Program-made: the position numbers and the translations under genes | Origin: Candidatus Zixiibacteriota bacterium | Lineage (GTDB): Bacteria; Zixibacteria; MSB-5A5; DG-27 | Direction of reading: 5' to 3' | Assembly: GCA_030605835.1 (NCBI GenBank) | Contig: JAUWHO010000048.1 | Span: forward strand, 107,984-171,983 | Length of the DNA stretch: 64,000 nt | Notes under the pieces: model-generated | What the model was told of the DNA's origin: nothing | Databases searched by the model: none | The model's input: only the letters and a program-made list of their open reading frames with translations | Part shown: positions 9,632 to 53,621 of the stretch, piece after piece | Layout of the letters: the number at the start of each line of letters is the position of its first letter | Numbering within the stretch: the first letter of the stretch is position 1

Positions 9632-11077
9632 CTACGGTTCGAAGTCCTCTATCGCATCTAAGAGCAGCTTCTTGGCGTATTTGTAGTTGTGTATCCCTTT
9701 ACTGCCGTCATTTTTCACGAAGTCGTAGTTGAATCTGGCATACCAGAAATCGCCAGTGGTGTCGGTGACATCAGCATAGGCATCCAGCTCAGAATGGAGG
9801 CTGTTAAGCCAGGTGTTGATGGAATCCTGTTTAGAATCGATGTTGAAATCTGCGGCTCCGCTGTGGCAACCCACCACCGCACAGGCGGCCAACCGCGGTT
9901 GGAAGGTGTGACTGCTGGCGGTGTCATCCTCAGCTCGGTAGAAATGACAACCGAGACAGGTCTCCAACTCGAACAGGGTGGTGTGCTGTGAGCTTTCGTA
10001 GGTGGTGTCATATTCGTGTCCCCCGATAGCCGTTAACATCGAATACTGGATGTGGCGCGGGGTCTCGTAGGAGATAGTATCGGGTAGCTCGCAGTCCCTC
10101 ATATGACATTGTTCGCAGAGCCCGGTTTCTCCCACCCCCGCGGGGAGCCGGAGCTGACCACTATAGTCGGCGCGGTGAGGATGGTGGCAGGCCAAACAGA
10201 CCAGGGCTTGAGGGTCACCCGGCAAGGTGTAATCGTAATGCAGCGCCGCCAGGAAGCCCTCGGCGGTGTGACAGTCGGCGCAGCCAGGATCACTGGCCTG
10301 GCCTTTGCCGGCGGTGTCGGAATAACTGTGGGCTGAAGTCTGCCACTCGGTCAAATAGGGATGATGCTGGGTTTGGTGGCATCCGGCGCAGAATTGGGCG
10401 GTTAACGGAGACTCCAAAGGCTGCCTGAGGCTATCGGGAGCAGAGGCATGAAACGAACCGGGACCATGGCAGTTCTCACACTGCACCCCGGCGAGCCGAT
10501 CTACCATCTGCTCGTCGAAGCCACCGTTGTTGACACTCAAATTCCAACCGACGGTGTGGCAGACCAGACACTGGGGATCGTCGCCGCGGCCGCGATTCAC
10601 AAGAGCAGTATAGGCATCGGCGTGGGCGGTGGAGCCCCACCAGGTGAGTATGGAGGTGTGGCATTCCTCGTTGCAGCTCTGTGCCCCCACATAATAGAGA
10701 GTCTCAGCAGGGGTGTATTCACCCACCTGGATGCTCACCGTAGCTTCGGTGCTATCGGTGCCATCGAAGACGTTGACCCTCACATCGTAGAGACCGGCGG
10801 TGCTGGGAGCGGCCCAGAAGGCGGTATCTCTGTTGGCGTGAAAAACTCTTCCGGAATCAGAGCTCCAGATGTGAGTGGTAGAATCCCCATCCGGATCCGA
10901 ATAGCTCACAAAGAGGGTATCCAGCTCCCCAGCCCCGACCGAATCAGAGCTGGCGCTGACACTTAAAATCTCCGGGGGGCGGTTGGCGGGGCCGGTAGTA
11001 TCCTTTTTGGTGCAGCCCAAAACGAGAAGTAACGCCGCCATTAACCCCACTACTGAAGTCCGCAAAGCATATTTCAT
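9632..11077 (-). CDS. Multiheme c-type cytochrome lipoprotein with N-terminal Ig/PKD-like domain
   Basis: Lipobox LVLGC; seven CxxCH (CLVCH, CENCH, CAGCH, CADCH, CLACH, CEQCH, CLGCH) plus CNEECH and CAVVGCH; C-terminal DGSKGIHNYKYA helix. Confidence 0.88.
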   Translation of the reverse strand: MKYALRTSVVGLMAALLLVLGCTKKDTTGPANRPPEILSVSASSDSVGAGELDTLFVSYSDPDGDSTTHIWSSDSGRVFHANRDTAFWAAPSTAGLYDVRVNVFDGTDSTEATVSIQVGEYTPAETLYYVGAQSCNEECHTSILTWWGSTAHADAYTALVNRGRGDDPQCLVCHTVGWNLSVNNGGFDEQMVDRLAGVQCENCHGPGSFHASAPDSLRQPLESPLTAQFCAGCHQTQHHPYLTEWQTSAHSYSDTAGKGQASDPGCADCHTAEGFLAALHYDYTLPGDPQALVCLACHHPHRADYSGQLRLPAGVGETGLCEQCHMRDCELPDTISYETPRHIQYSMLTAIGGHEYDTTYESSQHTTLFELETCLGCHFYRAEDDTASSHTFQPRLAACAVVGCHSGAADFNIDSKQDSINTWLNSLHSELDAYADVTDTTGDFWYARFNYDFVKNDGSKGIHNYKYAKKLLLDAIEDFEP

Positions 11078-14311: not shown

Positions 14312-15088
14312 CTAGTAAAAATTCTTTCTCAGGGTGAGCTTGATCGATTTGTTCTTTCCCAGAAGGTCGGCGTTGCACCGCAGCCGCCAGTTCTTCACAG
14401 TGGCGAATTCCTGAGCCTGGTTGAAGGATCTGATGGCGATGTAGGCATCGATGGCGCTGACAATGCGGTTCACCACCGCCGCCCCTAACATAAAGATCGC
14501 CCGACGGTTGGCGCTTTTGCTGTCGTTGCGCAGCTGTCGGAAGCGCTCCCGGGACTCATCATTGTTCCACTCCCAGTTCCAGAAATCGTCTTCGGGATAG
14601 GTGTTCTCTTCGTTTCGATCATAAAGCCGGGTGATCTGGTTGTAGTAGTCGCGCGATTCATAATAGGTCATCTTCTCGTAGAAAGTATCATCCTTCGCTT
14701 GGGTGTTCACCCCGGCATGCACCGCCGCGAAATTCTTGTAATCGTTCTCCCTCCAGCGGCCGTAAGACTTGAAGCCGTAATATCCCCCCCAGATCCCACC
14801 TTCCAGTGAGAAAAAGATGAAGCCTCTGGCCTTGGCGCCGGCGTAGAGCTCTCCGGCGCCGGGAACTGCCAGGGAGAGAGCCATCGCCAGGGGGGCCGAC
14901 TTCCGTTTTCCCGCCTGGGGCTCTTCCCAATCCCAGGTCAAATCCTCGTCAACACCAGCCAGGCTGGGGAGAACTGCAAGCTGCCTCTGAAGGCTGGTCT
15001 CAATTGAGGGGCCCTTCTCATGGGTGGCGTTTGCAAGGCTACCCCACCAGAGGACGATTGCGAGCGTCAGAAGTCTCGATGCCTTCAT
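14312..15088 (-). CDS. Uncharacterised envelope protein (DUF5683/TM2-like N-terminal motif)
   Basis: Signal peptide, SLAVPGAGELYAG motif, hydrophobic helix near C-terminus, ends KLTLRKNFY. Confidence 0.6.
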   Translation of the reverse strand: MKASRLLTLAIVLWWGSLANATHEKGPSIETSLQRQLAVLPSLAGVDEDLTWDWEEPQAGKRKSAPLAMALSLAVPGAGELYAGAKARGFIFFSLEGGIWGGYYGFKSYGRWRENDYKNFAAVHAGVNTQAKDDTFYEKMTYYESRDYYNQITRLYDRNEENTYPEDDFWNWEWNNDESRERFRQLRNDSKSANRRAIFMLGAAVVNRIVSAIDAYIAIRSFNQAQEFATVKNWRLRCNADLLGKNKSIKLTLRKNFY

Positions 15089-15102
15089 AGGATCAGTCTA
15101 AC

Positions 15103-15987
15103 TTAATAGAAACTCTTGGTCAATGTCAACTGGGGAATGCTCTCATTTTGATACTCTCGCATCTTCATCTTCAAATGGAGACCGGCAAACCTCTCCTGTT
15201 TTTTGTTATAGGAACGGGCCGTCAAGGCGGCATCGAAACCGGAGAGGACGTGGTTGACCAAAACACAGACGGTGAAAGTGCGGGCGCGAGAGAACATCCG
15301 ATTGGATTCATCGCGCGTGTCTAAGTAAGTGTTGCGGTATGCACTGGGCGGGGGGTTTCGTGGATCAAACTGCTCAGGACTAACCCCAGCGTCCTCCCAA
15401 CCGACGCTGAACTGGTCATACTTCCCAACGTTCTCGTAGTACTCGAGGTTCTTGATCACGTTACCCTGTTCGTCGACGGGGAGGTCGTGCGAGAACTCCT
15501 TTTTTTCGGTAGTGTCGAGGGTGTTCCACCAAGTGAAGTACCGATCAGGGTCGTAGTTCTGGTCCGCGAAGAGCCTGTATTCGTCCTCCTTGTCGTTCCC
15601 CTTCCCGTCGTAGACGAAATATCCGGCCCAGAGAGAAGCCTCCAGCCCCAGAAAGAGAAGAGGCTTTATCTTCGAGCCGGCGTAGAATTCACCGGCACCG
15701 GGTATCAGCATGGAGTAGAAAAAGGCTAACCTGGTGTTCTTTGGCTTGAAGGCGTAGATGTCCTCCTCTAACTGTCCCGGCTTTTCGCTTAAGTATTTCG
15801 CCTCCGCCCAGGAGGGAGAGACCTCCTCAATCTCGAGATAGGAATCGAAGGGGCGATTCAAAGAGGCGAAATAAGAACCGACCAGCTCTTTATTTGCAGT
15901 GGCCTCGGACTGCGAAGCCCAGACCGACCCGCAAACAACTAAGATCGAGGCTGCAAATGCCCAGAGGGCGAATCTTTTCAATTTCAT
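15103..15987 (-). CDS. Uncharacterised envelope protein, paralogue of 14312-15088
   Basis: Signal peptide, SMLIPGAGEFYAG, VLVNHVLSGFDA, ends QLTLTKSFY. Confidence 0.6.
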   Translation of the reverse strand: MKLKRFALWAFAASILVVCGSVWASQSEATANKELVGSYFASLNRPFDSYLEIEEVSPSWAEAKYLSEKPGQLEEDIYAFKPKNTRLAFFYSMLIPGAGEFYAGSKIKPLLFLGLEASLWAGYFVYDGKGNDKEDEYRLFADQNYDPDRYFTWWNTLDTTEKKEFSHDLPVDEQGNVIKNLEYYENVGKYDQFSVGWEDAGVSPEQFDPRNPPPSAYRNTYLDTRDESNRMFSRARTFTVCVLVNHVLSGFDAALTARSYNKKQERFAGLHLKMKMREYQNESIPQLTLTKSFY

Positions 15988-16066
15988 CTTATCTTCTCCT
16001 GTCTACTGAAGCTCAAACGTTTACGTTCACGGCCTATACTTGGTATCGATCTCCAACGAGTCAATA

Positions 16067-19000
16067 TCACCTCACTATCGCCATCTTGAAGATGGCGTGT
16101 TCTTTCAGAGAGCCACTTTGTGCCCCCACCCGGCAGAGATAGACTCCGGGAGCGAATTTAGAGCAGTCCAAAAGATAGTCGTTATCGGACACTTGACCTT
16201 GTTCCGCATGCTCGAAGATTAGCTCTCCGGTGAGGTCGAAAATCTTTATGTTCACCTCCGCGGGCTGATTGAGGTAATACCTGATCTTGGTCTCCTCCCC
16301 GGCGGGATTGGGATAATTATAAACCGAGCCTGGGGGAAGAAACTCGCCCACCACAATCGGAGAGAGAAGCGAGCTGGGGAAAAGAAAACTGTTCTGGGGG
16401 TTTTGACCGAAAGTTGACCACGATAGGTCTTCCTCCGTGAAAAGAGCGGCCAGATCCCAGAAGGTGATGAAGCCGTCGGCGTAGGAGCGGACGCAGACCT
16501 CCAGATCTCCGTCATTGTCCAGATCGACCACCGTTGGGGAGTCGTAAATTGGGAAGCCAGAGGGGAGGGGGAAGCCGTTCACCGGGTTGCCGTCGTAGCG
16601 ATAGGCATACAGGTTCCCCTGGGGACCGCCCAAGATTATGTCCAGTTGGCCGTCACCGTCCAAGTCTCCCAGAACCGGGGTCGAGAGTATGAGGCCCATG
16701 TTTGTTGAGCGGCTCAATCTCACCGGGAAATTGGAGACCAGACTTCCGGTATAGTTGTAAGCGTATATCTCATCCTCGCCGGCAAGGATTATCTCCAAGA
16801 AACCATCTCCATCTATATCTCCGAGAATTGGGGGGCCGCTGAGGATTTCAGCGACCTGCCGGGGCCAGCCGGACTCCATCTCCCCATTGAGATTCCAGAC
16901 GTAAAGGTAACCTCCGGCGGTGGAGGCGATAATCTCCTCCCCTCCGTCGTGGTCGATGTCTCCTATCACCGGATTGAAGAGGGAATCGGCGACAATAACC
17001 TCTTCCCAGTTCTCATAACTGATAAAGGAGGAATCGTTACCATAGGAGGTCAAGACTACCTGAGCCTCACCGGAAATTGCCATCCCGGTCAGATGATGTT
17101 CACTATCTTGAGTAGAGATGATATCACCTCCTGAGTTGAAGAGGAGAAGTTTGTTGCCGGCGGCAATGGCTATTCTCAAACTACCGCTGTAGGAGAAAAC
17201 CGCCGGTGAGGTGCTCGCAGGAGAACCCAAGTCAACGGGAAAGCCGGGCATGAGGTCTGCGCCCCCGTCTGGCTCTGAATCCCTTGGTTTCCAGGCGTAA
17301 AGCTTGCCATCGAGAGAGCCCAAAATCACCTCTAAAGTATCGTCTTCGTCTAAGTCCCCGAAGGCGGGAGTGCCCACGAAATCTGAATCGGCGAGAGAGA
17401 AACTCGATAGCGGGTACTTCTTCACAGAACCGTCGAACTGGATAATCCCAATGCTGTCGACATTGTTCATGATCTTGCTGCCGTCATATCTCCAGCCCAG
17501 AAGAACCTTCCCCCAGACCTGGAAGACCTCCTGGAGGGAATCGCCATCAACGTCCACGACCGTGGGCTGGCAGTCGCTCAGCCCGGGAACAGAGGTCTGG
17601 GGCCAGCCGGCTTGAGAGATCTCCCGACTCAGATTGAAGGTCATAACGGTATCAGCCCGACTTATTTCGGTGACGTAGATCTGGCTGTTGGCTCCGAGGT
17701 TGCTTTCGGTCGCCGGATTGGTGTAAGGGGTGAAGTTGCTGTTGTTGCCCCTTCTCCACATGTCGGCGGCAGAGCCGTATCCGGCGTGGTAGTTCCCCCC
17801 GAGATCGATTACCCCGTCGGCCTCCATCAGAGTTACGAAACGGCGATCAGGATCCCACTGTAAGGCGTTATTGAAGAAATTGTTAAAGCCGTTCCCTACA
17901 TAATCTAAGTAACAGACGACCTCGTCCACCCGCCAGATGAGGATGCCGTTGCCGGGCAAGAGGCGGTCGTATTCGTCATTTAAGACCTTGACCGTATCGG
18001 CACCGGGGAAATATGCATAACCCGGTCCTAAAATGACGCCGGTCTCTTTGTCTCCAATCAGGATATCGGAATAATCACCGACATCGACAAAATCAACCTC
18101 CCATCGGCGATTTTCCAGAAGAAAATATTCGTTGGCGTCGATGGGGACTTTCACCACCTCGACACCATTTCTGACCATCTCGGCGGCGATGACCTCGACA
18201 CTGTCCTCATTAGAGATCTCTTTTGGGACTGAGAATCCCAAATAGGCTCGGCTCCAGGCCTCGGGGTAAACCGGCAGGGTCCCGAAAACTGCCGGACCAA
18301 TATCAGGGAAATCGGCTCCAACGCTCTCGCCGTTGTTGTCCATCAGGGAGAAATCACCTATCTGGGTGAAGAAATCGTAAGTTCGATAGAGGTCAACCAG
18401 CCCTAACTGATGCCCGAACTCGTGAGCCAGGCCTGAATTCAAGGCTCCAATCCGATTGTCCTGACTAACGGTTTCCGGTATTATGAGACCGTCTTGGATT
18501 TCAACCATCCCGAAATCGACCGGAAAAGGGTCTGTAAGAATTAGAAAACCCGAGAAAAAATCATCAGGGGTATCTTCGACGAAGTCGAGGTTGCCCTGCT
18601 GGTCGGCGCCGGCGTGAAAGAGGATTATGGACTGATACCGGGAAAAGTCAATCTCGGGCGAGAGGGAATCGGCGAGTCCCACGGCGTCCATGAGGAAATG
18701 CGCCATCCGCTCTGCAACGTACGGCCCGTGAGGTCCATCCTCACCGTAATGTCCCATCATCACCGGCAGACGGTAGCTCCCTTCGTCCTCCTGGGGCCAG
18801 ACATCGTAGGTGAGCACCAGCTGATGATTGGAGACGCTGTACCAGTAGTGGTGCAATGCCTGGAGGTGGGTCTCGAAATATTTCTTGTTGTGGGGGGTAG
18901 GGTCGATGTAGTGTCCCTCCTCCTCTTCAAACTCTTCGTAGCTGCGAAGGTCGAACTGGCCGCGGCCGGTGGTGTGGGGGTCATCGGGCTCTTCGTACTC

Positions 19001-19297
19001 GAAATCGACCCGCAGGGCGCATATCCTCAAGGTGTCCACTTGGAAGACGTCCAGGGGGAGCCCCTTTTTCAGGGTCGGCAGAGCTCCGGGGAAGGGTCTC
19101 TCCAACCCCAACAGGTTCCTGCGACAAACCGCGGAACGAAACCCCTGTTTCTCGACAGCATATTGTCTGTCCGGTTTCACTGAAGGACGAACAAACCGCC
19201 GGGGAACCAGCAGTTCCTTAGCCTCGGCGGCGGACCAGGAGGACGCCAGGACGCCGACTGTGATGATCAGAGTCAGAAGGGGGTGAGTTTTGGTCAT
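16067..19297 (-). CDS. M6 (immune inhibitor A-like) metalloprotease with FG-GAP/VCBS repeats and T9SS-type CTD
   Basis: HEFGHQLGLVDLY zinc motif, FSLMD Met-turn, repeated GDxDGDG..E motifs, C-terminal YNYPNP...IKIFDLTG...GVYLCRV. Confidence 0.85.
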   Translation of the reverse strand: MTKTHPLLTLIITVGVLASSWSAAEAKELLVPRRFVRPSVKPDRQYAVEKQGFRSAVCRRNLLGLERPFPGALPTLKKGLPLDVFQVDTLRICALRVDFEYEEPDDPHTTGRGQFDLRSYEEFEEEEGHYIDPTPHNKKYFETHLQALHHYWYSVSNHQLVLTYDVWPQEDEGSYRLPVMMGHYGEDGPHGPYVAERMAHFLMDAVGLADSLSPEIDFSRYQSIILFHAGADQQGNLDFVEDTPDDFFSGFLILTDPFPVDFGMVEIQDGLIIPETVSQDNRIGALNSGLAHEFGHQLGLVDLYRTYDFFTQIGDFSLMDNNGESVGADFPDIGPAVFGTLPVYPEAWSRAYLGFSVPKEISNEDSVEVIAAEMVRNGVEVVKVPIDANEYFLLENRRWEVDFVDVGDYSDILIGDKETGVILGPGYAYFPGADTVKVLNDEYDRLLPGNGILIWRVDEVVCYLDYVGNGFNNFFNNALQWDPDRRFVTLMEADGVIDLGGNYHAGYGSAADMWRRGNNSNFTPYTNPATESNLGANSQIYVTEISRADTVMTFNLSREISQAGWPQTSVPGLSDCQPTVVDVDGDSLQEVFQVWGKVLLGWRYDGSKIMNNVDSIGIIQFDGSVKKYPLSSFSLADSDFVGTPAFGDLDEDDTLEVILGSLDGKLYAWKPRDSEPDGGADLMPGFPVDLGSPASTSPAVFSYSGSLRIAIAAGNKLLLFNSGGDIISTQDSEHHLTGMAISGEAQVVLTSYGNDSSFISYENWEEVIVADSLFNPVIGDIDHDGGEEIIASTAGGYLYVWNLNGEMESGWPRQVAEILSGPPILGDIDGDGFLEIILAGEDEIYAYNYTGSLVSNFPVRLSRSTNMGLILSTPVLGDLDGDGQLDIILGGPQGNLYAYRYDGNPVNGFPLPSGFPIYDSPTVVDLDNDGDLEVCVRSYADGFITFWDLAALFTEEDLSWSTFGQNPQNSFLFPSSLLSPIVVGEFLPPGSVYNYPNPAGEETKIRYYLNQPAEVNIKIFDLTGELIFEHAEQGQVSDNDYLLDCSKFAPGVYLCRVGAQSGSLKEHAIFKMAIVR

Positions 19298-19367
19298 GAG
19301 AATCGCTTTTCTATAGAGCCCAGCTTGGGACAAGCTGGGCTACCTTTCCTGTCACCTGTTCCCTGTT

Positions 19368-21947
19368 TTAGAATCTCCCGGTCATCGAGAATCTCATCTC
19401 GTTACCACGGTTGTTCTCTTTGGAGCTGGGGAGGTAGGAGAAGTCGAAGGCGTAGTTCATGTACTGGAGTCCCACCCCCACGGTGGCGAACTGCAGGGCG
19501 CCGATCTGATCATACAGGTAACCGGCCCTCAAAGCCACGAAGTTGCCATACCAGTACTCCATTCCGCCGTGGACGATGACCTCCTCGATCTCGGTATCGA
19601 AGCGGTCGTTTAAGTCCACCAGGAGTTTGGTGAACTCCGCAATAAAGGTCAGGCGATTGAAGGGGCTGTCCACCAGACGGTAAGCCCCGGAGGCCACGAA
19701 ATTCCGAGGCAGGGGGTCTGACTGGTCGGCGTCAATGTAAGCGACGTTGGGGCCGATGTTGGTCACCACCGCCGCCAGCGCCAAACGTCTGAATGGGTTG
19801 TAGAGCAAACCGCCGTCGATGGCAAAGGAGGTCGCGATCCCCTCGCCTCTTTCCGCTCCCGCTCCGGCCTCGGCGAGATGGCTGTAAATGTACTTGGTGG
19901 TGAGCCCCATGGCGAGGTTCTCGGTTATGCTGGTGCCGTAAGACAGCCCCAGGGCGTATTCGAAGGACTCGAAAGTCCCGAGGTAGTTCCCGACCTCGTC
20001 GGTGCGTTGTTGGCTTCCGTAAGAGACGAAGGTGAGGCTGGCACCCAGGGTGCCGATGTTCTTGAAGTTCTGGACATAGGAGAGATACTCGTAATAGACA
20101 TCGCTTGCCAGCGCCGGAACCAGATTGGTGTGCATCAGGGTGAGCTCCCTTCTGGCGTGTGCCAGAACCACTACCCTCTTTTCGGTGGCAAACCAGATCT
20201 CCCCGTCCTTTTCGATGATCGATCTGGTGGGGGTGCGCTCTAAGTTCTGGTGATAGTAACGTCCCCACCTTTTGCCGTCGTGTTTGATGGTCCCGTACTC
20301 GGTCCCCACCAGAATCTCCCCGCCGACCCTCTCGAGGTCGTAAACTTGAGCTCCGGCGGTATTGGCATAAACGTAGAGCTGCTCTCCAGTCTGGAGAGGG
20401 TTGTCGTCGATTTTGTTATAGGAGGCGATCAGACCTGCCAACCTTAGGGCCCGCTCCGGCTTCTTAGTGCCGACGAATTTTTGGGCCACCTCCAGGAGAC
20501 TTTCTCCTCCCTCGGCGGTGTATAGTCTGTAACCGTGCCGTCTCCAACTGCTCTTGTGGAAACTCCAGACGCCTGAGTCGGTGCCGATCCAGAGATTCTC
20601 CTTCTTGTCCAAAGCCAGGGAGGTCACCTCCCCGGAGAAGGCGATACTGTATGGGATCTTTATCTGCATCCCGGGATAGAGGGAATCTGAATCGGCCAGT
20701 TCGTTATATTCGGAAATTAAGGCCGCAGCTGCCGCTATCTCGGCACCGTGCTTCGAACCCAAGAGACGGGAGGCGATCTTCTCGAAGTCGTCCCCCACCC
20801 GCACCGGATAGTTGAGGTGAGCCTTAATCTCCCTGCCGTCGAAATAGGCAATGCCGGCCTTGGTCCCGATCCACAGAGCCCTTTTCTTATGAAGTCTGAG
20901 CGCGGTGATGTAGTTATCCGGCAGCTCTTCTTCGGTGGTGTAGAAGGTCCACTTGCTTCCGTCAAATCGGGCCAGACCGGAATCGGTCCCCAGCCAGAGC
21001 GACTTTTTCTCCCCGGCGACGATGGCGGTAACATTGTTGGAGGGAAGACTGTCGCTCTCCACCGTAAAGGTCTTCCACCTTCTGCGGTCGTATCTGAAAA
21101 GCCCCTCGGGGGTGCCGAGGTAGAGGTAGTCTTTGAAATCGGAGGCCAGGCAATTGATCCGGGGGGGCAAGACCAGGTTGAAGGGGATTTTTACCTCCTC
21201 CGGCATCTGGGTGGTGACCGGCTTGTCGACTCCGAAGGCCAACTTGTCCAGCTCTAGGCTGCTGAGGGAATCGTCGGCGAGGTAATCCTCCACCGATCTT
21301 TTGAGAAGTTGAAGCTCATCGGCATCCAAGGTCAGCTCTCCCCAGGACCTCTTGAGGCTCTCCAGCCCCATCTTTATCTCTTCTAAATAGTAGTAGTTCT
21401 CCGGCACCTTCTCTAAAATCCTCTGTTCTAGAAGCTCCAGGTCCTCGAAGGGGATGGTGGTGTTCGCCTCCGCGATCTTTTTCGCCATATTCTGACGGGC
21501 CTCGCGGTCGTCGGTGCGGGTGAAGCGCTCGGCGATGTCCTCCAGCGATTCTCCGCTCCTGACCGCGTAGTCCTCCCCGAAAAGCCACCTCTCCCCGTTC
21601 CAGCGAGCCAGGCGCTCTCCGACCAAAGCCCAGATATCATATCTGAGGTAGTTATTCTCGGGGAGATTGTTCTTCAAGATAGCGATCTGGCGGATCTCTC
21701 CTTCAGCTTCCAGCTTGAACTCCAAGAAGGCTGGGGACAAAGGATAGCGGCCCAGACCGGCGGGGTTCCAGTGGGTGGCAGTGGCGTCGTCGGAGATGGC
21801 GGCGAAGCACTCCCCCATGCCTCCAGCCCTGGCCCCGGGAGCGATCATAAGGAAAATCACCCCGGTCTGGCTCACCTGACATAGCCCCCCCGGCGATAAG
21901 CCGACTAAAAAGAGCAGAGCCAACGTCGATATGATTGTTGCTTTCAT
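19368..21947 (-). CDS. PorV-family barrel interrupted by a beta-propeller with three LysM-like domains
   Basis: PorV N-terminus FLMIAPGARAGGMG...HWNPAGL; Reg_prop-type blades (LPSNNVTAI..LWLGT..GLARFDG); LysM-like YAVRSGESL, YPVRVGDDF..LYPGMQIKIP, YTAEGGESL..LQTGEQL; barrel resumes at ELTLMH and ends MRFSMTGRF. Confidence 0.8.
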   Translation of the reverse strand: MKATIISTLALLFLVGLSPGGLCQVSQTGVIFLMIAPGARAGGMGECFAAISDDATATHWNPAGLGRYPLSPAFLEFKLEAEGEIRQIAILKNNLPENNYLRYDIWALVGERLARWNGERWLFGEDYAVRSGESLEDIAERFTRTDDREARQNMAKKIAEANTTIPFEDLELLEQRILEKVPENYYYLEEIKMGLESLKRSWGELTLDADELQLLKRSVEDYLADDSLSSLELDKLAFGVDKPVTTQMPEEVKIPFNLVLPPRINCLASDFKDYLYLGTPEGLFRYDRRRWKTFTVESDSLPSNNVTAIVAGEKKSLWLGTDSGLARFDGSKWTFYTTEEELPDNYITALRLHKKRALWIGTKAGIAYFDGREIKAHLNYPVRVGDDFEKIASRLLGSKHGAEIAAAAALISEYNELADSDSLYPGMQIKIPYSIAFSGEVTSLALDKKENLWIGTDSGVWSFHKSSWRRHGYRLYTAEGGESLLEVAQKFVGTKKPERALRLAGLIASYNKIDDNPLQTGEQLYVYANTAGAQVYDLERVGGEILVGTEYGTIKHDGKRWGRYYHQNLERTPTRSIIEKDGEIWFATEKRVVVLAHARRELTLMHTNLVPALASDVYYEYLSYVQNFKNIGTLGASLTFVSYGSQQRTDEVGNYLGTFESFEYALGLSYGTSITENLAMGLTTKYIYSHLAEAGAGAERGEGIATSFAIDGGLLYNPFRRLALAAVVTNIGPNVAYIDADQSDPLPRNFVASGAYRLVDSPFNRLTFIAEFTKLLVDLNDRFDTEIEEVIVHGGMEYWYGNFVALRAGYLYDQIGALQFATVGVGLQYMNYAFDFSYLPSSKENNRGNEMRFSMTGRF

Positions 21948-22160
21948 CTTAGACCTCCAAATTGGAAAAGAACCTCTTTTACCAAAACCCTGTTTCTCTG
22001 AACTTAAACGCCCTTTTCAGCGAAGGTGGGCTACGTCCCCGACCTTAGCTGTCTTCCAACATCCCGTTCACGCTGTAACTCTTATATTCACCTCTGATCA
22101 AACTGTTTCAAGATCCGTTTTTATCGAAATTATCGGTCAAGTTTCCAGGGATTCAAGAGA

Positions 22161-25100
22161 TCACTTCATCTTGACTGCCTTTTGGAATTGTTCGACAACC
22201 TTCTTTCCGGAACCACCGCCACTCGATTGATTAACCTCGACGGTAATTTTGTATATGTAAACCCCGTTGGCGATTTGGTCTCCCTCCTGATCGCTGCCGT
22301 TCCACTCTCGGAAATTGTAGCCGAAGCTGGTGGGTAGATTCTGAAAACTCTTTATTCTCCGACCCGCGAGGGTGAAGATCTCTAAGCTCACCCGGTCGAC
22401 CTCGTAGCTGTTCAACCGGTACTGAAAGACGGTGGAGGTCTTGAAGGGGTTGGGGTAGTTCATGACCTCCTCCAGACGGAACTCCTCCGCGGAGATGACG
22501 CTCAAAAGGGCAGTTGCGACCGAGGAGTTATTAAAATTGTCCCAGGCTTTGAGGCTGACCTCATACTCTCCCGGAAAAACCTCCGGCAGCTGATATTCCA
22601 CCCTCCCCCTGCGGAAGCTTCCCACCTCGTATTGGAACTGGTCGGTCAAATCCAACTCAAAAGAGACTTCCCCCTCCAGAGTCAAGGCCAGATGGTGTCC
22701 CAGCTGGCCGGTGATATTCACCCCGCTGGTGTCGTAGATCACCGCCTGCAGGGTGAACTGAGGCGGCACCACCTGTCGTCCACCGCTTCCCTCCTCTCCC
22801 TGAAAGTAAAGACTTATCCCCGGCCCGGTGGAATCGACCACCTCAGGGGTGGTGGCTCCCAGGAATAACCCCTCCCGGTAACCGTGACCATCTATGGAGC
22901 CGTCCTCGACATAGGCGATAATCTTGGCGGTGGAGTCCCCGTAGGTTATGTCTTTGGGGACGATGAATTTGGCTACGAACTCACCGCTCATAACCTCCAC
23001 CGGGCCCCGAAAGATGTTGGAGCCGGGGAGGTAGTAATAATAGTTGTTGGCGGCGCCGTAAGCGCGGGGCTTCTTGGCGTCGTAAACCGTTATCCAGGCG
23101 GTGCCGTTGAAGTCTGAGACCAACTGGTCGTCGAGATCGTGGACTTCCCCCTCGACCGAGATTACGCTCAAAGCCTCCAGGGTGTCCGGTGATACCGAGG
23201 TGATATGAACCTTCAAGTGTGGTTGCAACAGCCTCAGGGCGGGGTCACCGAAGAGGACGTATTTGCGGTCGTTGGAGGAGGGGGCCCGCAGCAGTTTGGC
23301 AGTGCAGAGGGCGGCGGTTATCGAGAGGGTGTCGGCGCCGAAGAGTTGGTCGAATACCTCGTAGTTAAGATAGGCGTTGCCCGGAGCCGACACCAGCCGG
23401 GTGGCGGCGATAGTGGCGATGGCGCCGTTTTCTGGCATCCTGACAAAGTCCTCGGCCATCCCCTCTCCCCCGGGCTCATCCCACTTGGCGATGCTGCAGG
23501 AGGCCCCGTAAACCAACGGGAGATGTCCCCGGGTCTCCAGAATCGGGAGATCCTGGGTTCTCCGGAGAACGTGCTCGTGTGCCCAGACCTCCTGGCTGCC
23601 GTGGCCGATGTAGTCGATGAGCAAGGTACCGGAGTTGAAGCTGTTTATGACCGCCTCCCGAGCTTGTGGTTTCTCCCCGCCCTCGCCGAAGGGATATTCC
23701 ATAAGGTAGATCTTGGAGACGTAGAAGCCTTTGGGGGTGTATATTTCTGCCAGGTCCTCGGCCTGGGAGGTGTGAAACCACTCTGAGGAGCTTCTGGCGC
23801 TGTGCTGGTCATCGGCGACAACCGTGATGGTATTGCGCCAGTCCCCCGGAGGGGAGTTGGTCTCGTAATCGATGATCTTGTCGATGACATGCCCCAGCGC
23901 CTGCGAGCTCTGTACCGGAATGCGGGAGATGAACATGTCCACGGTGCCGTTGGAGTCTGCATCCGGCTTACCGTAATCTCCGAAATAGATGTAGTTCTCA
24001 TCGGCGGCGCTGTTGTCGGCTATGAACGGGGGGAGGTAGTTTCTGGCATTTGTCCCCTCGCTGTTCCGATAATCGTAAGTGCCATCCCCCACGAGACAGG
24101 CGTAAGCCGGAGATGGCTTGCTCCAGTTCTGAAAAGTGTATTTCAGGAAGTGACGGATCGCCAGGGGGTCGAAGACTCCCCAGGAGAACTGATTGTACAC
24201 CTCGGAGATCTTGACGAGTCTCACCGCCAAGCTCGAGAACTGCTGCCTGTGATTGGCCAACCTTTGAGCTTCCTGGTAGAAATCGTCGTAAACGATCAAG
24301 AGCATATCGTAACGATTGGTGGTGGCGCGCAGGTTATCCGGGAGGTAGGAGGTGATGGAGATCGGCTTTTTGTGGGCGGCGGCCTCCCCCAGGAAATAGA
24401 GCTTAGGTCTTTCAGAGTCACCCCGGTCTTGAAAGATGAGGCCGGAACCGTCGATCTCCACACCGGAGATGACCGAGCAGTTCAAGGGGTCGGTCACTTC
24501 TAAGAGGACGAAATCACTGCCCGAATATCCTCCGATACGATACTCGAAGTTCTCGGAGCCGATCGGAGCCTGGAAGAGAAACTGGTTCTCGTAAAGCGAG
24601 AGCAGACGGGAGTATTCAACCTCGTAGTAATTTAGATAAACCTCCTTGGAGAATGAAAAATCGAACTGGTTCATTCCCTCCAGGAGGTCGTTGGTCTCCG
24701 CGGTGGTTTTGTTGTAGCTCTGCGAGATGACCGAAGCCCAACTGCCATTCACTCTGATGTCGCAGCTTCCACTTTTGGTCACCACCTTCACCAATCCCGT
24801 TTCGCTGGTGAGAACTCCATTCAAGGTGGAATACTGGCTGAAATCCTCCCCCTTCAACCAATACCAGTTGAAATAATCTCCCCCGCCGCCGAGAGTCTTA
24901 TCGTTCTCAACGTGCAGCCGGGAGATGGTTTTGGTCCTCACCACCGGATTAGGATCTGTGGGTGCCCCCGAGATTGTAGCCATCCTCTTTGGGGGAGAAG
25001 CGAACTGGGTCGTCCCGAAGGTCAACCAGTAAGAGTTGGTGTCGCTGTAATGATGGCGGTAATATGTGAACTCTTGGCCCTGCTGGTCGTATTCCCATCC

Positions 25101-26168
25101 CTCGGTGCCGATCCCATAAAAGAGGAGATAATCGCCGGAGTCGAATGAGCCGTCCTCTTCACCGACAACGTGTATCGGTATCTCCTTGAGTTCGGGAGCC
25201 GCAATTGAATTGTCAGTCGGCAGCTCTCTCCCGCCTGCGGTGAAAACTCTGAAGCTCCTGGGATCAAGGCTGTTAGTGTTAACCCCCGCTTGCGACAGGG
25301 TGAGGTTGTCAATTTTATATGTTGCTTGGTCCTTCAACTTCATCCGATACCACACCCCGGCGGAGTCGAAGGCGCTGCCGAGACTCATTTGAGCTTTCTG
25401 CAGCTCTCCGCCAAGCCTTTTCCAGTTCCTGGCCTCCGGATAGTTTATGATCGTCTGCCTGTAAAGGTGCCGAAATAGATCCCTTTCCGGGGGCAGCGTA
25501 AAACCTCCCTTTGGAGCTTTACCGACGAAGGAGACGAAGACGGTGATTTCTCGATAGAATCTTACCTTCCCGCTGATCGGATTGTACCTCACCGGCGAAA
25601 GCACCAGTTCCAAGACTCTGAAATCGCGGATATGTTCCCTCGGACCCTTGCGAGCGATTCTCTTCGGTAGAAATTCGTCCTTTGAGTATCGGGGCGACAA
25701 CTTCAGAGGTGCCGCAGGCGGTATCTCCTCCACGAACAGTTTTTGCGGGAAGGGAGCAATGTTAAAGGGGCCGTATTCCGAGAAGGTGCCGGTTTTCACT
25801 TCGAATCGGGCCGTCTTTCCCGGAGGGACGGCAATGAAGATGTTTTTTCTGGGCAATCGGGGAGCGCCCAGATCTCTGCCGAGATAGCTGTTCTCTATCC
25901 CCAGAAGGTCGAACTCTAGTCCTCCATCGCTCGTTTTTCGATGCTTGAGCTCTCCCGGTTTGTAGAGGAGGGTGAGGCCCTCTTCGTCGGAGCTGAGTAT
26001 GTGGACATCCCCGTCAAACAGCCGGACGGTGGCGTGAAGGCCGGGGCAGGAGATAACCGCCAGAAAAAGAAACGAGGCTATTGCCGCTCCCGCCGAAGTC
26101 CTGCTGTCCAAAAACAACTGGATTGGCCTTCGGCTGTTGGGGAGATGTCGCAGATTGCTAAAGGGCAT
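22161..26168 (-). CDS. porU: T9SS sortase PorU (gingipain C25 family) with propeptide and FlgD-type CTD
   Basis: YLLFYG, YACLVGDGTYDY, ISRIPV, catalytic DYIGHG and ASCS, YVLFGDPAL, KAWDNFNNS, C-terminal NYPNPF..WNG.DQEG..ANGVYIY; directly upstream of porV. Confidence 0.85.
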   Translation of the reverse strand: MPFSNLRHLPNSRRPIQLFLDSRTSAGAAIASFLFLAVISCPGLHATVRLFDGDVHILSSDEEGLTLLYKPGELKHRKTSDGGLEFDLLGIENSYLGRDLGAPRLPRKNIFIAVPPGKTARFEVKTGTFSEYGPFNIAPFPQKLFVEEIPPAAPLKLSPRYSKDEFLPKRIARKGPREHIRDFRVLELVLSPVRYNPISGKVRFYREITVFVSFVGKAPKGGFTLPPERDLFRHLYRQTIINYPEARNWKRLGGELQKAQMSLGSAFDSAGVWYRMKLKDQATYKIDNLTLSQAGVNTNSLDPRSFRVFTAGGRELPTDNSIAAPELKEIPIHVVGEEDGSFDSGDYLLFYGIGTEGWEYDQQGQEFTYYRHHYSDTNSYWLTFGTTQFASPPKRMATISGAPTDPNPVVRTKTISRLHVENDKTLGGGGDYFNWYWLKGEDFSQYSTLNGVLTSETGLVKVVTKSGSCDIRVNGSWASVISQSYNKTTAETNDLLEGMNQFDFSFSKEVYLNYYEVEYSRLLSLYENQFLFQAPIGSENFEYRIGGYSGSDFVLLEVTDPLNCSVISGVEIDGSGLIFQDRGDSERPKLYFLGEAAAHKKPISITSYLPDNLRATTNRYDMLLIVYDDFYQEAQRLANHRQQFSSLAVRLVKISEVYNQFSWGVFDPLAIRHFLKYTFQNWSKPSPAYACLVGDGTYDYRNSEGTNARNYLPPFIADNSAADENYIYFGDYGKPDADSNGTVDMFISRIPVQSSQALGHVIDKIIDYETNSPPGDWRNTITVVADDQHSARSSSEWFHTSQAEDLAEIYTPKGFYVSKIYLMEYPFGEGGEKPQAREAVINSFNSGTLLIDYIGHGSQEVWAHEHVLRRTQDLPILETRGHLPLVYGASCSIAKWDEPGGEGMAEDFVRMPENGAIATIAATRLVSAPGNAYLNYEVFDQLFGADTLSITAALCTAKLLRAPSSNDRKYVLFGDPALRLLQPHLKVHITSVSPDTLEALSVISVEGEVHDLDDQLVSDFNGTAWITVYDAKKPRAYGAANNYYYYLPGSNIFRGPVEVMSGEFVAKFIVPKDITYGDSTAKIIAYVEDGSIDGHGYREGLFLGATTPEVVDSTGPGISLYFQGEEGSGGRQVVPPQFTLQAVIYDTSGVNITGQLGHHLALTLEGEVSFELDLTDQFQYEVGSFRRGRVEYQLPEVFPGEYEVSLKAWDNFNNSSVATALLSVISAEEFRLEEVMNYPNPFKTSTVFQYRLNSYEVDRVSLEIFTLAGRRIKSFQNLPTSFGYNFREWNGSDQEGDQIANGVYIYKITVEVNQSSGGGSGKKVVEQFQKAVKMK

Positions 26169-26335
26169 CGCCAGAACCAAAACCTACTTTATCGAATCCT
26201 GTTCCCGCCTGATGAGGTCCTCTGACCTCGGCGGCTTCAAAACCCTTTAGCTTTCGGCGATAAGCAACACCTCGAGAAAATTGTCTCCAGGCCTTTCTTC
26301 GTCTACTTTTCAACCCAGAGCAGAATTCAGGGAAC

Positions 26336-42714: not shown

Positions 42715-42806
42715 GCGTAGAAATTGTTTTGACTCTGGAGGTGAGACTATACGATTCGATAGAGATTTTTTGAAACCGTTGACTTTTGGAAGCTGAAGAT
42801 CTCTAT

Positions 42807-44294: not shown

Positions 44295-44311
44295 GTTTAC
44301 AGGAGTTGAAG

Positions 44312-45790: not shown

Positions 45791-45800
45791 AGGAGAGAAG

Positions 45801-46826
45801 ATGAATAGAGTTTTCATATATCCGCTGCTCATCATCGCCTTCTTCGCAGGTGCGATTTGCTTCGCCGACAGTGAAGATGGCGGATATGCGGGAGTGTTCA
45901 CGACTATGGGGATCGGGGCCCGCCCGATCGGTCTGGGCGGGGCGTTCACCGGGCTGTGCGACGATGTCAACGCCGGTTACTGGAATCCGGCGGGGATTTC
46001 CAGGATAGGAGAGTTCACCATCGGGGGGATGTATCGCCGGCTGGACTTGGACAGAAGGTACAATTTCTTCAACCTGGCAACACCCATCTTGGGCGATGCC
46101 AGTCTGGGGCTGTCGTGGATCAACGCCGGAGTGAGTGACGTCCAGGGGCGAGACTCCGACGGACTCCCGACGGAGGAAATCAAGAACCGCAAAAACACTA
46201 TATTCTTATCTTTTGCTCGCCGCCTCGTTCAAGAGAAGCCAATCGAGATGTTCTCCGTGGGGGTAAACGTCAAATATATCCAGGAGGATCTGGCCAATCT
46301 CAACGCTTACGGGGTGGGCTTCGATCTCGGAGTTTTCTTACAGATTACTGAAGAGTATGCGGTCGGTTTCGCGGTGCAGAACGTCGGCAGTCGCTATAAC
46401 TGGGACAGTGGGAGCTACTACGCACGCTATGGGTCCCAGGGTAGCACCTATAATGAGAGCTTCCCGGTCAACTTCCGTTTCGGGGCCTCCGGCCTGTTTT
46501 TAGATAAACATCTGGTGCTGGCCTCCGATATCGAGAAAAGCAACAAACAGGAAGTTAGAGTCCACTTCGGAGGTGAGTATTGGCTCTTCAAGGAGGTGTT
46601 GAAGGAGGTAGAATCTGAAGAGGGATCGGAGGAAGCCACTGTGAGACTCCTGGTTGAGGACAGGTGGGTCGGCATTCGAGCCGGCTACGATGACGGTCGT
46701 CTCACCTTCGGTGGCTCGTTGTGGCAAGCGGTCAAGTGGTTTGACCTGGGAATCGGGTATGCTTTCGTCACCGCCAAGGTGAACGAGGATCCCGAACATG
46801 TCATATCGATAGAGTTGCAGTTTTAA
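45801..46826 (+). CDS. PorV/PorQ-family outer membrane barrel
   Basis: GIGARPIGLGGAF..DDVNAGYWNPAGI, GFDLG, VQNVG, FPVNFRFG, ends IELQF. Confidence 0.85.
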   Translation: MNRVFIYPLLIIAFFAGAICFADSEDGGYAGVFTTMGIGARPIGLGGAFTGLCDDVNAGYWNPAGISRIGEFTIGGMYRRLDLDRRYNFFNLATPILGDASLGLSWINAGVSDVQGRDSDGLPTEEIKNRKNTIFLSFARRLVQEKPIEMFSVGVNVKYIQEDLANLNAYGVGFDLGVFLQITEEYAVGFAVQNVGSRYNWDSGSYYARYGSQGSTYNESFPVNFRFGASGLFLDKHLVLASDIEKSNKQEVRVHFGGEYWLFKEVLKEVESEEGSEEATVRLLVEDRWVGIRAGYDDGRLTFGGSLWQAVKWFDLGIGYAFVTAKVNEDPEHVISIELQF

Positions 46827-46844
46827 GCGATTGGGACTTGAATT

Positions 46845-53551: not shown

Positions 53552-53621
53552 CAGAGGGAGAGGTGAGCTTTCACGGGTGGGGCTCACATTTTCAATAGCT
53601 CTAACCAGGGGAAATGCGAAG

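What the first reader, a model, noticed from the sequence alone, without database searches (positions are those of the whole stretch)
19368..21947. PorV barrel split by a beta-propeller carrying three nested LysM-like domains
Seen: the PorV N-terminal motif (..ARAGGMG..WNPAGL, about aa 30-65) is separated from the first barrel strand (ELTLMH, about aa 605) by roughly 530 aa, whereas the two other PorV paralogues in this window (about 316-341 aa) have no insert. The insert has Reg_prop-type blades with three LysM-like units spliced between them; the first is itself split by a helical segment of about 90 aa. Known: PorV shuttles CTD cargo and binds PorU; LysM binds peptidoglycan or GlcNAc polymers; Bacteroidota PorE uses a propeller plus an OmpA-like domain to tether T9SS parts to peptidoglycan. 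Inference: a fused PorV and cell-wall anchor, a convergent PorE substitute that would make the shuttle stationary and imply a different T9SS mechanism. If the insert faces outward, it is a glycan-binding surface module instead.
Basis: partly seen in the sequence, partly recalled or inferred. Interest (0 to 1): 0.85.

Follow-up and report, generated by a model that had tools for sequence, protein, structure and literature searches.

The report
PorV with periplasmic propeller-LysM insert
In this Zixibacteria genome, PorV (the outer-membrane cargo carrier of the type IX secretion system) carries a conserved 530-residue insert, a seven-bladed propeller bearing three cell-wall-binding-type LysM domains, which should hang into the periplasm and probably ties this normally mobile carrier to the cell wall.

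Summary
ORF 19368-21947 (-) encodes an 859-aa protein. Its PorV N-terminal plug motif (aa 27-67) and 14-stranded PorV barrel (aa 599-859) are separated by a 531-aa insert. With a 53-sequence alignment, AlphaFold gives pLDDT 90 and pTM 0.86. The insert is a 7-bladed Reg_prop-type propeller with three beta-alpha-alpha-beta LysM units between blades. The first unit is itself split by an 80-aa four-helix segment. With the insert removed, the sequence matches the PorV/PorQ model end to end and F. johnsoniae PorV at E=3e-26. The gene follows the PorU sortase gene.

It is not an assembly chimera: ten full-length near-identical copies exist in independent assemblies. At least 50 clusters at 50% identity share the architecture, and every named one is Zixibacteria. 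Fibrobacterota relatives have one LysM plus a propeller. Edwardsbacteria have a different insert at the same site.

The loop/turn pattern puts barrel strand 1 at the periplasmic rim, so the insert is periplasmic. Peptidoglycan binding, PorE replacement and an immobile shuttle remain untested. I found no paper describing this architecture. Verdict: a new variant of a known kind, of real interest to type IX secretion specialists.

The parts
19368..21947 (-). Whole gene: 859-aa PorV orthologue with a 531-aa insert (stop codon 19368-19370)
21879..21947 (-). Signal peptide, about aa 1-23
   Evidence: Hydrophobic N-terminal helix aa 2-16 followed by a low-confidence linker aa 17-26. The cleavage site was not predicted with a dedicated tool.
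21744..21878 (-). PorV/FadL-type N-terminal plug (hatch) motif, aa 24-68 (..APGARAGGMG..DDATATHWNPAGLG)
   Evidence: PF19572 positions 8-46. Aligns to F. johnsoniae PorV residues 24-63. L33, R40, G45, D54, N61, P62, G64 and L65 are invariant in 53 homologues.
20154..21743 (-). The insert as a whole, aa 69-598 (propeller plus three LysM units plus helical segment)
21564..21737 (-). Closing strand (aa 73-78, predicted to pair with the last blade) and propeller blade 1 (strands at aa 85-128)
   Evidence: Secondary structure of the AlphaFold model. W106, L113 and W121 are conserved.
21450..21578 (-). LysM unit 1, N-terminal part (beta1, alpha1, alpha2), aa 124-166
   Evidence: Partial Pfam LysM match, 16-18 bits. 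hhalign to unit 2 gives 97.5%. N162 is nearly invariant.
21210..21449 (-). Four-helix segment nested inside LysM unit 1, aa 167-246
   Evidence: Helices at aa 167-180, 188-203, 209-222 and 230-239. About 80 aa in 44 of 53 homologues and absent (4-8 aa) in 7. No family match.
21171..21209 (-). LysM unit 1, C-terminal strand (..EEVKIPF..), aa 247-259
   Evidence: Strand at aa 251-255. Aligns to the IKIPY strand of unit 2. P255 is nearly invariant.
20805..21161 (-). Propeller blades 2-4, aa 263-381
   Evidence: Reg_prop matches. Twelve strands in three groups of four.
20646..20816 (-). LysM unit 2, aa 378-434
   Evidence: Pfam LysM 25.3 bits against a cut-off of 20.9. Beta-alpha-alpha-beta fold.
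20535..20639 (-). Propeller blade 5, aa 437-471
   Evidence: Reg_prop 21.9 bits. Four strands.
20361..20534 (-). LysM unit 3, aa 472-529
   Evidence: No Pfam hit on its own. The family profile hits solved LysM domains at 1.7e-6 to 8e-5. hhalign to unit 2 gives 98.6%. Beta-alpha-alpha-beta fold.
20154..20357 (-). Propeller blades 6-7, aa 531-598; blade 7 has three strands and is completed by strand aa 73-78
   Evidence: weak Reg_prop match
19371..20153 (-). 14-stranded PorV barrel, aa 599-859, ending ...MTGRF
   Evidence: PF19572 and NF033709. Fourteen strands. Foldseek top hits are PorV 8gl6_F (3.5e-18) and 6h3i_F (4.6e-15), target TM-score 0.61-0.63.
22161..26180 (-). Upstream gene: PorU, the T9SS sortase (1339 aa)
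   Evidence: NF033707 at 731.9 bits against a cut-off of 420; Peptidase_C25
16067..19333 (-). Downstream gene: M6-like metallopeptidase with FG-GAP repeats and a T9SS C-terminal sorting domain (1088 aa)
   Evidence: The same gene follows the insert-bearing PorV in L038, L039, L040 and L041.
14312..15987 (-). Two small paralogous proteins (294 and 258 aa, shared ..PGAGE(F/L)YAG.. motif), conserved in length and position downstream of the cluster
   Evidence: Weak DUF5683 match. Genes of similar size sit at the same position in L038, L039 and L040.

Best explanation
This is the Zixibacteria orthologue of PorV, the outer-membrane carrier that receives C-terminal-domain cargo at the type IX translocon and presents it to the PorU sortase.

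A 531-residue module has been inserted exactly between its N-terminal plug and barrel strand 1, and it hangs into the periplasm. The module is a seven-bladed Reg_prop-type propeller. Both of its chain ends lie in one blade, next to the barrel rim. Three LysM domains are spliced into blade-to-blade connections. By standard propeller topology these connections lie on the face opposite the barrel, so the LysM domains point towards the cell wall.

Proposed mechanism: the extracellular loops work as in canonical PorV, binding cargo and PorU. The three LysM domains bind peptidoglycan glycan strands multivalently. This tethers the PorU-PorV sorting station to the wall, holds it at a fixed depth, and restricts its lateral movement. 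The propeller acts as a rigid spacer and possibly as a docking surface.

Shown: the gene, its domain composition, the fold prediction, family conservation, PorU linkage and barrel orientation.

Inferred: the periplasmic location (from barrel topology rules), the face on which the LysM domains sit, peptidoglycan binding, and any effect on mobility.
For: PorV identity:
- NF033709 scores 237.6 bits, and 255.6 bits in a single stretch once the insert is excised.
- F. johnsoniae PorV 6h3i_F matches at E=3.3e-26 from residue 24 to the C-terminus.
- The Foldseek top hits are PorV.
- The gene lies directly downstream of PorU. The same is true in L038, L039 and L040.
- The FjPorV residues whose carbonyls bind the conserved cargo lysine (N87, F115; PMC10994853) align to the conserved ..ASD616.. 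and ..SYG644.. loops.

Fold: pLDDT 90, pTM 0.86, 7 blades, 3 beta-alpha-alpha-beta units and 14 strands. The propeller resembles the periplasmic Reg_prop sensor domains BT4673, BT3049 and BT4663.

LysM identity.

Orientation: the connections after odd-numbered strands are 9, 5, 10, 17, 15, 4 and 10 aa. Those after even-numbered strands are 3, 4, 2, 3, 3 and 2 aa. There is a C-terminal Phe, and only 4 residues separate the last blade strand from strand 1. FadL-family barrels carry an N-terminal plug of about 40 residues in the lumen (bioRxiv 10.1101/2020.05.11.088534).

Selection: module lengths are nearly constant over 53 clusters at 28-46% identity, and the LysM Asn and Pro and the blade Trp and Gly positions are conserved.

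Precedent: T9SS already uses a periplasmic propeller plus a peptidoglycan-binding domain in PorE (PMC7192894, PMC12773672).
Against: - No binding experiment was done, and no model coordinates were available. The face carrying the LysM domains and their distance from the membrane are deduced from strand order, not measured.
- Units 1 and 3 fall below Pfam's LysM cut-off on their own. All three units carry about 10 extra residues between the two helices, so ligand specificity could differ from classical LysM.
- Individual family members have lost unit 1 (P0034), unit 2 (P0011) or unit 3 (P0021), and Fibrobacterota relatives keep only one unit. No single LysM unit is indispensable.
- Edwardsbacteria carry a non-LysM, non-propeller insert at the same site in the same gene cluster. 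Whatever function is common to these inserts may therefore not be wall binding.
- Current Bacteroidota models require the carrier to leave the translocon (PMC10994853, PMC12365241). A firm wall tether sits awkwardly with that.
Confidence: 0.55

Rival explanations
1. Periplasmic coupling handle. The propeller, with its helical segment, is mainly a docking platform. Through it the periplasmic T9SS machinery (counterparts of PorK/N, PorW/SprE, Skp or PorG) would grip the carrier and pull or push it away from the translocon. The LysM units would only position or stabilise it.
For: [quoted passage not shown] A periplasmic Skp helix already touches the base of PorV (PMC10994853).
- Other carriers (SprF) and PorG are coupled to the periplasmic track through periplasmic tails (PMC12635249).
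- Attachment complexes sit on PorKN rings (PMC12365241).
- The propeller is the most constant part of the insert. It persists in Fibrobacterota relatives with only one LysM unit.
- Edwardsbacteria have another large insert at the same site.
Against: - No partner has been identified, and no PorK/L/M/N or SprA genes were seen in the window.
- Three conserved LysM units are hard to explain as mere stabilisers.
- This reading and the wall-tether reading are not mutually exclusive.
Confidence: 0.25
2. Surface-exposed glycan-binding module, a PorZ-like fusion. The insert faces outward and binds a surface glycan, or delivers a lipopolysaccharide anchor to PorU.
For: The propeller gives weak matches to PorZ: NF052228 at 40.9 bits and Foldseek 5m11 at 7.6e-7. 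LysM domains bind GlcNAc-containing glycans in general.
Against: - The insert lies between the lumenal plug and strand 1, and its last strand is 4 residues from strand 1.
- The alternation of loops and turns, the even strand number and the C-terminal Phe place that end in the periplasm.
- The PorZ score is far below its cut-off of 260, and there is no C-terminal sorting domain.
- The PorZ resemblance is the generic Reg_prop fold. The periplasmic sensor domains of hybrid two-component systems match it better.
Confidence: 0.04
3. Assembly chimera or frame artefact that joins a PorV gene to an unrelated propeller/LysM gene.
For: In one MAG (K_1_bin.48) the gene is broken over two contigs at aa 560-564.
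Against: - Those two contigs cover both junctions, at 97-99% identity.
- The 90% identity cluster holds ten full-length 859-aa copies from NCBI, ENA, JGI and Logan assemblies.
- More than 50 divergent clusters share the same architecture.
- The fold model is confident across both junctions.
Confidence: 0.01

Closest known systems
PorV of Bacteroidota (F. johnsoniae PorV, PDB 6H3I/8GL6; P. gingivalis PorV/LptO)
   Same: - N-terminal plug motif and a 14-stranded FadL-type barrel.
- Conserved L1 and L2 loop positions that contact the cargo CTD.
- Gene next to porU.
- Sequence match E=3e-26 and best structural match.
   Different: - A 531-aa periplasmic insert between the plug and strand 1, whereas canonical PorV has a few residues there.
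- It scores below NCBI's PorV equivalog cut-off (188 against 250). Insert-free PorVs from outside Bacteroidota also score below it.
PorE (PG1058) of P. gingivalis
   Same: A periplasmic, outer-membrane-attached T9SS component that combines a beta-propeller with a peptidoglycan-binding domain. It is proposed to anchor T9SS parts to the wall (PMC7192894, PMC12773672).
   Different: - PorE is a lipoprotein with TPR, WD40-like, CRD and OmpA_C-like domains.
- Here the module is inserted into a barrel protein, the propeller is Reg_prop-type, and the wall-binding candidate is LysM x3.
- There is no sequence relationship. This is an analogy only.
Periplasmic Reg_prop sensor domains of Bacteroides hybrid two-component systems (BT4673, BT3049, BT4663) and the PorZ propellers
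   Same: Same blade type (PF07494). These are the best structural matches for the propeller part.
   Different: Those proteins have two uninterrupted propellers, and they bind glycans or A-LPS. Here there is a single propeller with LysM domains spliced between its blades, and no sensor or CTD context.
Periplasmic LysM domains of outer-membrane proteins (inverse autotransporters intimin/invasin) and of wall enzymes such as MltD and NlpD (from my own knowledge, not tested here)
   Same: A LysM domain located in a diderm periplasm and attached to an outer-membrane barrel, used for peptidoglycan binding.
   Different: In those proteins the LysM domain is terminal and single or tandem. Here there are three, nested in a propeller that is itself nested in the barrel protein. 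One LysM unit is further split by a helical segment.
SprF/PorP-type T9SS carriers and PorG
   Same: Outer-membrane barrels of the T9SS whose periplasmic parts couple them to periplasmic machinery (PMC12635249).
   Different: - Those use short C-terminal tails with cysteine motifs that are disulfide-bonded to GldK.
- Here the periplasmic part is a large folded domain with no such motif.
- The barrel family also differs: PorV/FadL-like, 14 strands.

Membership tests
PorV/PorQ family (NCBIfam NF033709; Pfam PF19572) | Whole-protein score above the curated cut-off | tested here: met
   NF033709 scores 237.6 bits against 90, and 255.6 bits in one stretch after excising the insert. PF19572 scores 78.4 against 27.
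PorV/PorQ family (NCBIfam NF033709; Pfam PF19572) | 14-stranded FadL-like barrel with an N-terminal plug motif | tested here: met
   Fourteen strands at aa 601-858 and plug helices at aa 31-66 at pLDDT 87-96. Foldseek hits are PorV first, then FadL/TodX.
PorV proper (NCBIfam equivalog NF033710) | Score above the equivalog cut-off (250 bits) | tested here: not met
   172.8 bits for the whole protein and 188.2 bits with the insert excised. PorQ scores much lower (81-99 bits). Canonical non-Bacteroidota PorVs also fail the cut-off (186 and 141 bits).
PorV proper (functional orthologue) | Genomic linkage to the PorU sortase | tested here: met
   PorU (731.9 bits) lies immediately upstream. The same order is seen in L038, L039 and L040.
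PorV proper (functional orthologue) | Binds CTD cargo and PorU, and associates with the SprA/Sov translocon | not testable with these tools
   Indirect only: the loop positions that contact the CTD in FjPorV are conserved.
LysM domain (PF01476) | Sequence match above the gathering score | tested here: met
   Met for the protein (34.3 bits against 20.9) and for unit 2 alone (25.3 bits). Unit 1 alone scores 16-18 bits and unit 3 has no hit. Units 1 and 3 are linked to unit 2 by hhalign at 97.5% and 98.6%, and unit 3 is linked to solved LysM domains.
LysM domain (PF01476) | Beta-alpha-alpha-beta fold | tested here: met
   All three units show this order of elements in the model. Unit 1 does so only after discounting the nested four-helix segment.
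LysM domain (PF01476) | Binds GlcNAc-containing glycans (peptidoglycan or chitin) | not testable with these tools
The conserved Asn at the end of helix 2 and the Pro in strand 2 are retained.
Reg_prop beta-propeller (PF07494) | Repeat matches above cut-off and a closed multi-blade propeller | tested here: met
   58 bits against 20.4. Seven four-stranded blades, with the N-terminal strand predicted to complete the last blade. Foldseek matches BT4673, BT3049 and BT4663 at 3e-12 to 1e-10.
PorE | Lipoprotein with TPR, WD40-like propeller, CRD and OmpA_C-like domains | tested here: not met
   No TPR, CRD or OmpA_C match. The protein is a barrel protein. The resemblance is functional analogy only.
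PorZ (NF052228) | Two propellers plus a C-terminal sorting domain, with a score above 260 | tested here: not met
   40.9 bits, one propeller, no CTD.

The most novel reading that the evidence does not exclude
In Zixibacteria, and in simpler form in Fibrobacterota and Edwardsbacteria, the type IX carrier PorV would not be a free shuttle. It would be a wall-referenced, essentially fixed station. Its periplasmic propeller-LysM module would replace PorE-type anchoring and perhaps the PorG/track-driven ejection step. Cargo hand-over from translocon to sortase would then happen without carrier migration. That would be a mechanistically distinct, possibly ancestral, form of type IX sorting outside Bacteroidota.
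Probability: 0.2. Interest if true: 0.8.

Novelty: new variant of a known kind. Interest (0 to 1): 0.62.

Why it matters
Nearly all mechanistic work on type IX secretion comes from two Bacteroidota species. There, PorV is a small barrel that must be pulled off the translocon and moved to the sortase.

A phylum-wide PorV with a large, conserved periplasmic domain carrying wall-binding-type modules shows that the carrier can be built very differently elsewhere in the FCB group. It offers a natural test of whether carrier mobility is essential, and of how the outer-membrane parts are positioned relative to the cell wall.

It is also an unusually deep example of nested domain insertion: helices inside a LysM, inside a propeller, inside an outer-membrane barrel protein. 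The plug-to-strand-1 junction appears to be a recurrent site for acquiring periplasmic domains.

Tried and rejected
- The search for homologous proteins timed out twice on the full protein. I used the representative-library search instead.
- Single-sequence AlphaFold was useless (pLDDT 36). The alignment-based run replaced it.
- The genome-collection scan with the single protein found only the near-identical MAG plus unrelated Reg_prop proteins.
- A profile of the seven contiguous unit-1 sequences found no significant solved LysM (best 0.78). Unit 1 rests on hhalign to unit 2 and on the fold.
- The helical segment matches no Pfam family.
- Promoter and terminator scans were no better than shuffled sequence.
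- Literature searches found no paper linking Zixibacteria and T9SS, and none describing a PorV with LysM or propeller domains.
- Rejected readings: assembly chimera, outward-facing PorZ-like module (topology), and membership of PorE or PorZ.
Three-dimensional statements are limited to what strand order implies.
Full report
**1. The observation**

The minus-strand ORF 19368..21947 is intact and encodes 859 aa. Its matches are:
- NCBIfam PorV/PorQ family NF033709, 237.6 bits against a cut-off of 90, split into an N-terminal stretch and aa 599-856.
- Pfam Reg_prop, 58 bits against 20.4.
- Pfam LysM, 34.3 bits against 20.9.

Scanning pieces separately gave these results:
- The PorV N-terminal motif lies at aa 25-63.
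- LysM unit 2 (aa 378-434) scores 25.3 bits, above the cut-off.
- Unit 1 gives a partial LysM match of 16-18 bits.
- Unit 3 gives no hit on its own.

Comparison with an insert-free homologue fixes the insertion point. P0115 reads ...WNPAGLGFLKGKELVLMH, and the window protein reads ...WNPAGLGR-[531 aa]-RELTLMH. When the insert is removed:
- The remainder matches NF033709 in one uninterrupted stretch, positions 1-323 of 326, at 255.6 bits.
- It matches F. johnsoniae PorV (6h3i_F) from residue 24 to the C-terminus at E=3.3e-26.

The two short paralogues at 45801-46826 and 46845-47795 (341 and 316 aa) match the family in a single stretch without an insert.

**2. Fold**

A single-sequence prediction failed (pLDDT 36). 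With an alignment of 53 homologues (A1), AlphaFold gave mean pLDDT 90 and pTM 0.86. The secondary structure, in chain order, is:
- plug helices, aa 31-66;
- a strand, aa 73-78;
- blade 1, strands at aa 85-128;
- LysM unit 1, with a strand ending at aa 128 and helices at aa 135-143 and 148-162;
- four helices, aa 167-239;
- the closing strand of unit 1, aa 251-255;
- blades 2-4, aa 266-381;
- LysM unit 2, to aa 432;
- blade 5, aa 441-471;
- LysM unit 3, aa 473-527;
- blades 6-7, aa 535-596;
- fourteen barrel strands, aa 601-858.

The last blade has three strands. The N-terminal strand aa 73-78 presumably completes it, so the propeller enters and leaves through one blade, as expected of an inserted domain.

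In Foldseek against the PDB, the hits were:
- PorV first: 8gl6_F at 3.5e-18 and 6h3i_F at 4.6e-15, with target TM-scores of 0.61-0.63.
- Then the periplasmic Reg_prop sensor domains of Bacteroides hybrid two-component systems BT4673, BT3049 and BT4663.
- Then PorZ, and FadL/TodX.

**3. The three LysM units**

Sub-alignments of the three units, cut from A1, are mutually homologous by hhalign:
- unit 1 against unit 2: 97.5%;
- unit 1 against unit 3: 95.2%;
- unit 2 against unit 3: 98.6%;
- unit 2 against the helical segment (control): 0.4%.

A profile of unit 3 finds the solved LysM domains of LytE (1.7e-6), the Thermus NlpC/P60 protein 4uz2 (2e-5) and AtlA (8e-5).

Unit 1 is interrupted by the 80-aa helical segment in 44 of 53 homologues. 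It is contiguous in seven: P0008, P0036, P0040, P0041, P0051, P0054 and P0056. This confirms that the helices are an insertion into a LysM. A profile of those seven sequences was too weak to find solved LysM domains.

Compared with classical LysM, all three units carry roughly ten extra residues between the two helices (alignments).

**4. Not an artefact, and not rare**

The 90%-identity cluster of the window protein holds ten full-length 859-aa copies from NCBI, ENA, JGI and Logan assemblies. A Zixibacteria MAG carries the gene at 97-99% identity on two contigs that together cover both junctions.

The exhaustive search of 1.84 billion representatives returned several dozen clusters at 50% identity aligned over the whole length, at 28-46% identity and 734-1052 aa. 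Module lengths across 53 of them are almost constant. Informative exceptions are:
- loss of unit 1 (P0034), unit 2 (P0011) or unit 3 (P0021);
- duplication of unit 1 together with its helices (P0005-P0007);
- extra material inside unit 2 in many members.

All members that carry an organism name are Zixibacteria or unclassified "bacterium". NCBI labels them only as "PorV/PorQ family protein".

More distant relatives:
- Proteins named as Chitinispirillaceae/Fibrobacterota (P0078), and related unnamed proteins (P0077, P0085, P0136, P0060), have one unit-1-like LysM and then an uninterrupted Reg_prop propeller.
- Candidatus Edwardsbacteria (P0105) has a different insert of about 500 aa at the same site, with no Reg_prop or LysM match.

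**5. Context**

The gene lies 213 bp downstream of PorU (NF033707, 731.9 bits). It lies 34 bp upstream of a 1088-aa M6-like metallopeptidase with FG-GAP repeats and a T9SS sorting domain. Two small paralogous proteins follow.

The order PorU, insert-bearing PorV, M6-like/FG-GAP/CTD protein, then two small genes of about 255-325 aa recurs in:
- divergent Zixibacteria-type loci L038 and L039;
- Edwardsbacteria locus L040.

In L041, which encodes one of the single-LysM relatives, the FG-GAP/CTD gene follows PorV but PorU is not adjacent.

No GldK/L/M/N, SprA or PorE genes were recognised in the 64-kb window. That says nothing about the rest of the genome.

**6. Orientation**

The barrel has an even number of strands and ends in ...GRF. 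The connections after odd-numbered strands are 9, 5, 10, 17, 15, 4 and 10 residues long. Those after even-numbered strands are 3, 4, 2, 3, 3 and 2. This is the usual pattern of long extracellular loops and short periplasmic turns, so strand 1 starts at the periplasmic rim.

The last propeller strand ends four residues before strand 1. The N-terminal segment is the FadL-type plug, which occupies the barrel lumen in this family. The insert is therefore periplasmic.

The propeller is joined to PorV between the third and fourth strands of one blade. The LysM units sit in connections from the fourth strand of one blade to the first strand of the next. Standard propeller geometry then puts the LysM units on the face opposite the barrel (inference, from my own knowledge of propeller topology).

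**7. Mechanism**

The residues of F. johnsoniae PorV whose backbone binds the conserved lysine of the cargo signal are N87 and F115 (PMC10994853). They align to the conserved ..ASD616.. and ..SYG644.. positions. The carrier function on the outside is therefore probably retained.

In the periplasm, three LysM domains most simply imply multivalent binding of peptidoglycan glycan strands. The propeller would serve as a rigid spacer and a possible docking surface.

This parallels PorE, which combines a propeller with an OmpA_C-like peptidoglycan-binding domain (PMC7192894, PMC12773672). The parallel is only an analogy, because none of PorE's defining domains is present.

The main rival is that the insert is a handle for periplasmic machinery. 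Three findings from Bacteroidota support it:
- Other outer-membrane T9SS proteins are coupled to a periplasmic track (PMC12635249).
- Attachment complexes sit on PorKN rings (PMC12365241).

The Edwardsbacteria insert, which lacks LysM, argues that wall binding may not be the whole story. The two readings can coexist.

**8. Novelty and score**

The proteins are in public databases under a generic name. I found no paper that links Zixibacteria to type IX secretion, and none that describes a PorV with LysM or propeller domains. The literature library held here is incomplete, so absence of a paper is not proof.

I class this as a new variant of a known kind. The components are all familiar. The novelty lies in their arrangement and in the implied tethering of a carrier that is treated as mobile in Bacteroidota.

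I score interest at 0.62.

Noticed in passing
window 14312-26180 (-); L038, L039, L040: A conserved five-gene cluster: PorU, insert-bearing PorV, an M6-like/FG-GAP protein of about 1070-1110 aa with a T9SS sorting domain, and two small proteins. The order recurs in divergent Zixibacteria-type loci and in Edwardsbacteria. The propeller-plus-CTD protein might play a PorZ-like role; that is speculation.
   Followed up: partly
window 16067-19333 (-): The M6-like protein best matches NCBIfam 'T9SS-dependent M6-like inactivated metalloprotease' (388 bits, below the cut-off of 600). However, it keeps an intact HEFGH zinc motif (..GLAHEFGHQLG..), so this copy may be an active peptidase.
   Followed up: no
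window 15103-15987 (-), 14312-15088 (-), 50954-51742 (-): Three DUF5683-like proteins. The first two share a ..PGAGE(F/L)YAG.. motif and a C-terminal ..(S/N)FY. The third matches DUF5683 clearly (53.9 bits). Their function is unknown, and two of them belong to the conserved PorU-PorV cluster.
   Followed up: partly
P0105 / L040 8001-10475 (Candidatus Edwardsbacteria): This PorV orthologue, in the same gene cluster, has a different insert of about 500 aa at the same plug-to-strand-1 junction. It has no Reg_prop or LysM match. The junction looks like a recurrent site for gaining periplasmic domains.
   Followed up: partly
P0077, P0078, P0085, P0136, P0060; L041 8001-10190: PorV relatives of 690-813 aa carry one LysM-like unit (with or without the helical segment) followed by an uninterrupted Reg_prop propeller. 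The only organism names (P0078's cluster) are Chitinispirillaceae/Fibrobacterota. This is a simpler form of the same insert.
   Followed up: partly
P0005-P0007; P0058/P0210: Variants within the family. In P0005-P0007 (about 1050 aa), LysM unit 1 and its helices are duplicated. P0058 has a long stretch of further propeller-like repeats where unit 3 would be; it is a partial sequence, and its cluster-mate P0210 is 1147 aa.
   Followed up: no
window 42786-47795 (+): Two tandem PorV/PorQ-family paralogues (341 and 316 aa) follow a choice-of-anchor-X/Big_9 protein and a BNR-repeat protein with a CTD-like tail. This may be a second sorting or anchoring module (PorQ- or PorV2-like).
   Followed up: partly
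window 47955-49508 (-), 53577-55589 (+): Further predicted T9SS cargo carrying the Por_Secre_tail domain: a C25-like protein and a right-handed beta-helix protein.
   Followed up: no
window 9632-11077 (-): A multihaem c-type cytochrome with an N-terminal PKD domain (weak DmsE/MtrC-like matches), next to a DUF4412 protein and an Hdr/TfrB-like iron-sulfur protein.
   Followed up: no
L001 and L002 (MAG K_1_bin.48): In this Zixibacteria MAG the same gene is broken across two short contigs at aa 560-564, so it is annotated there only as a partial PorV/PorQ protein.
   Followed up: yes
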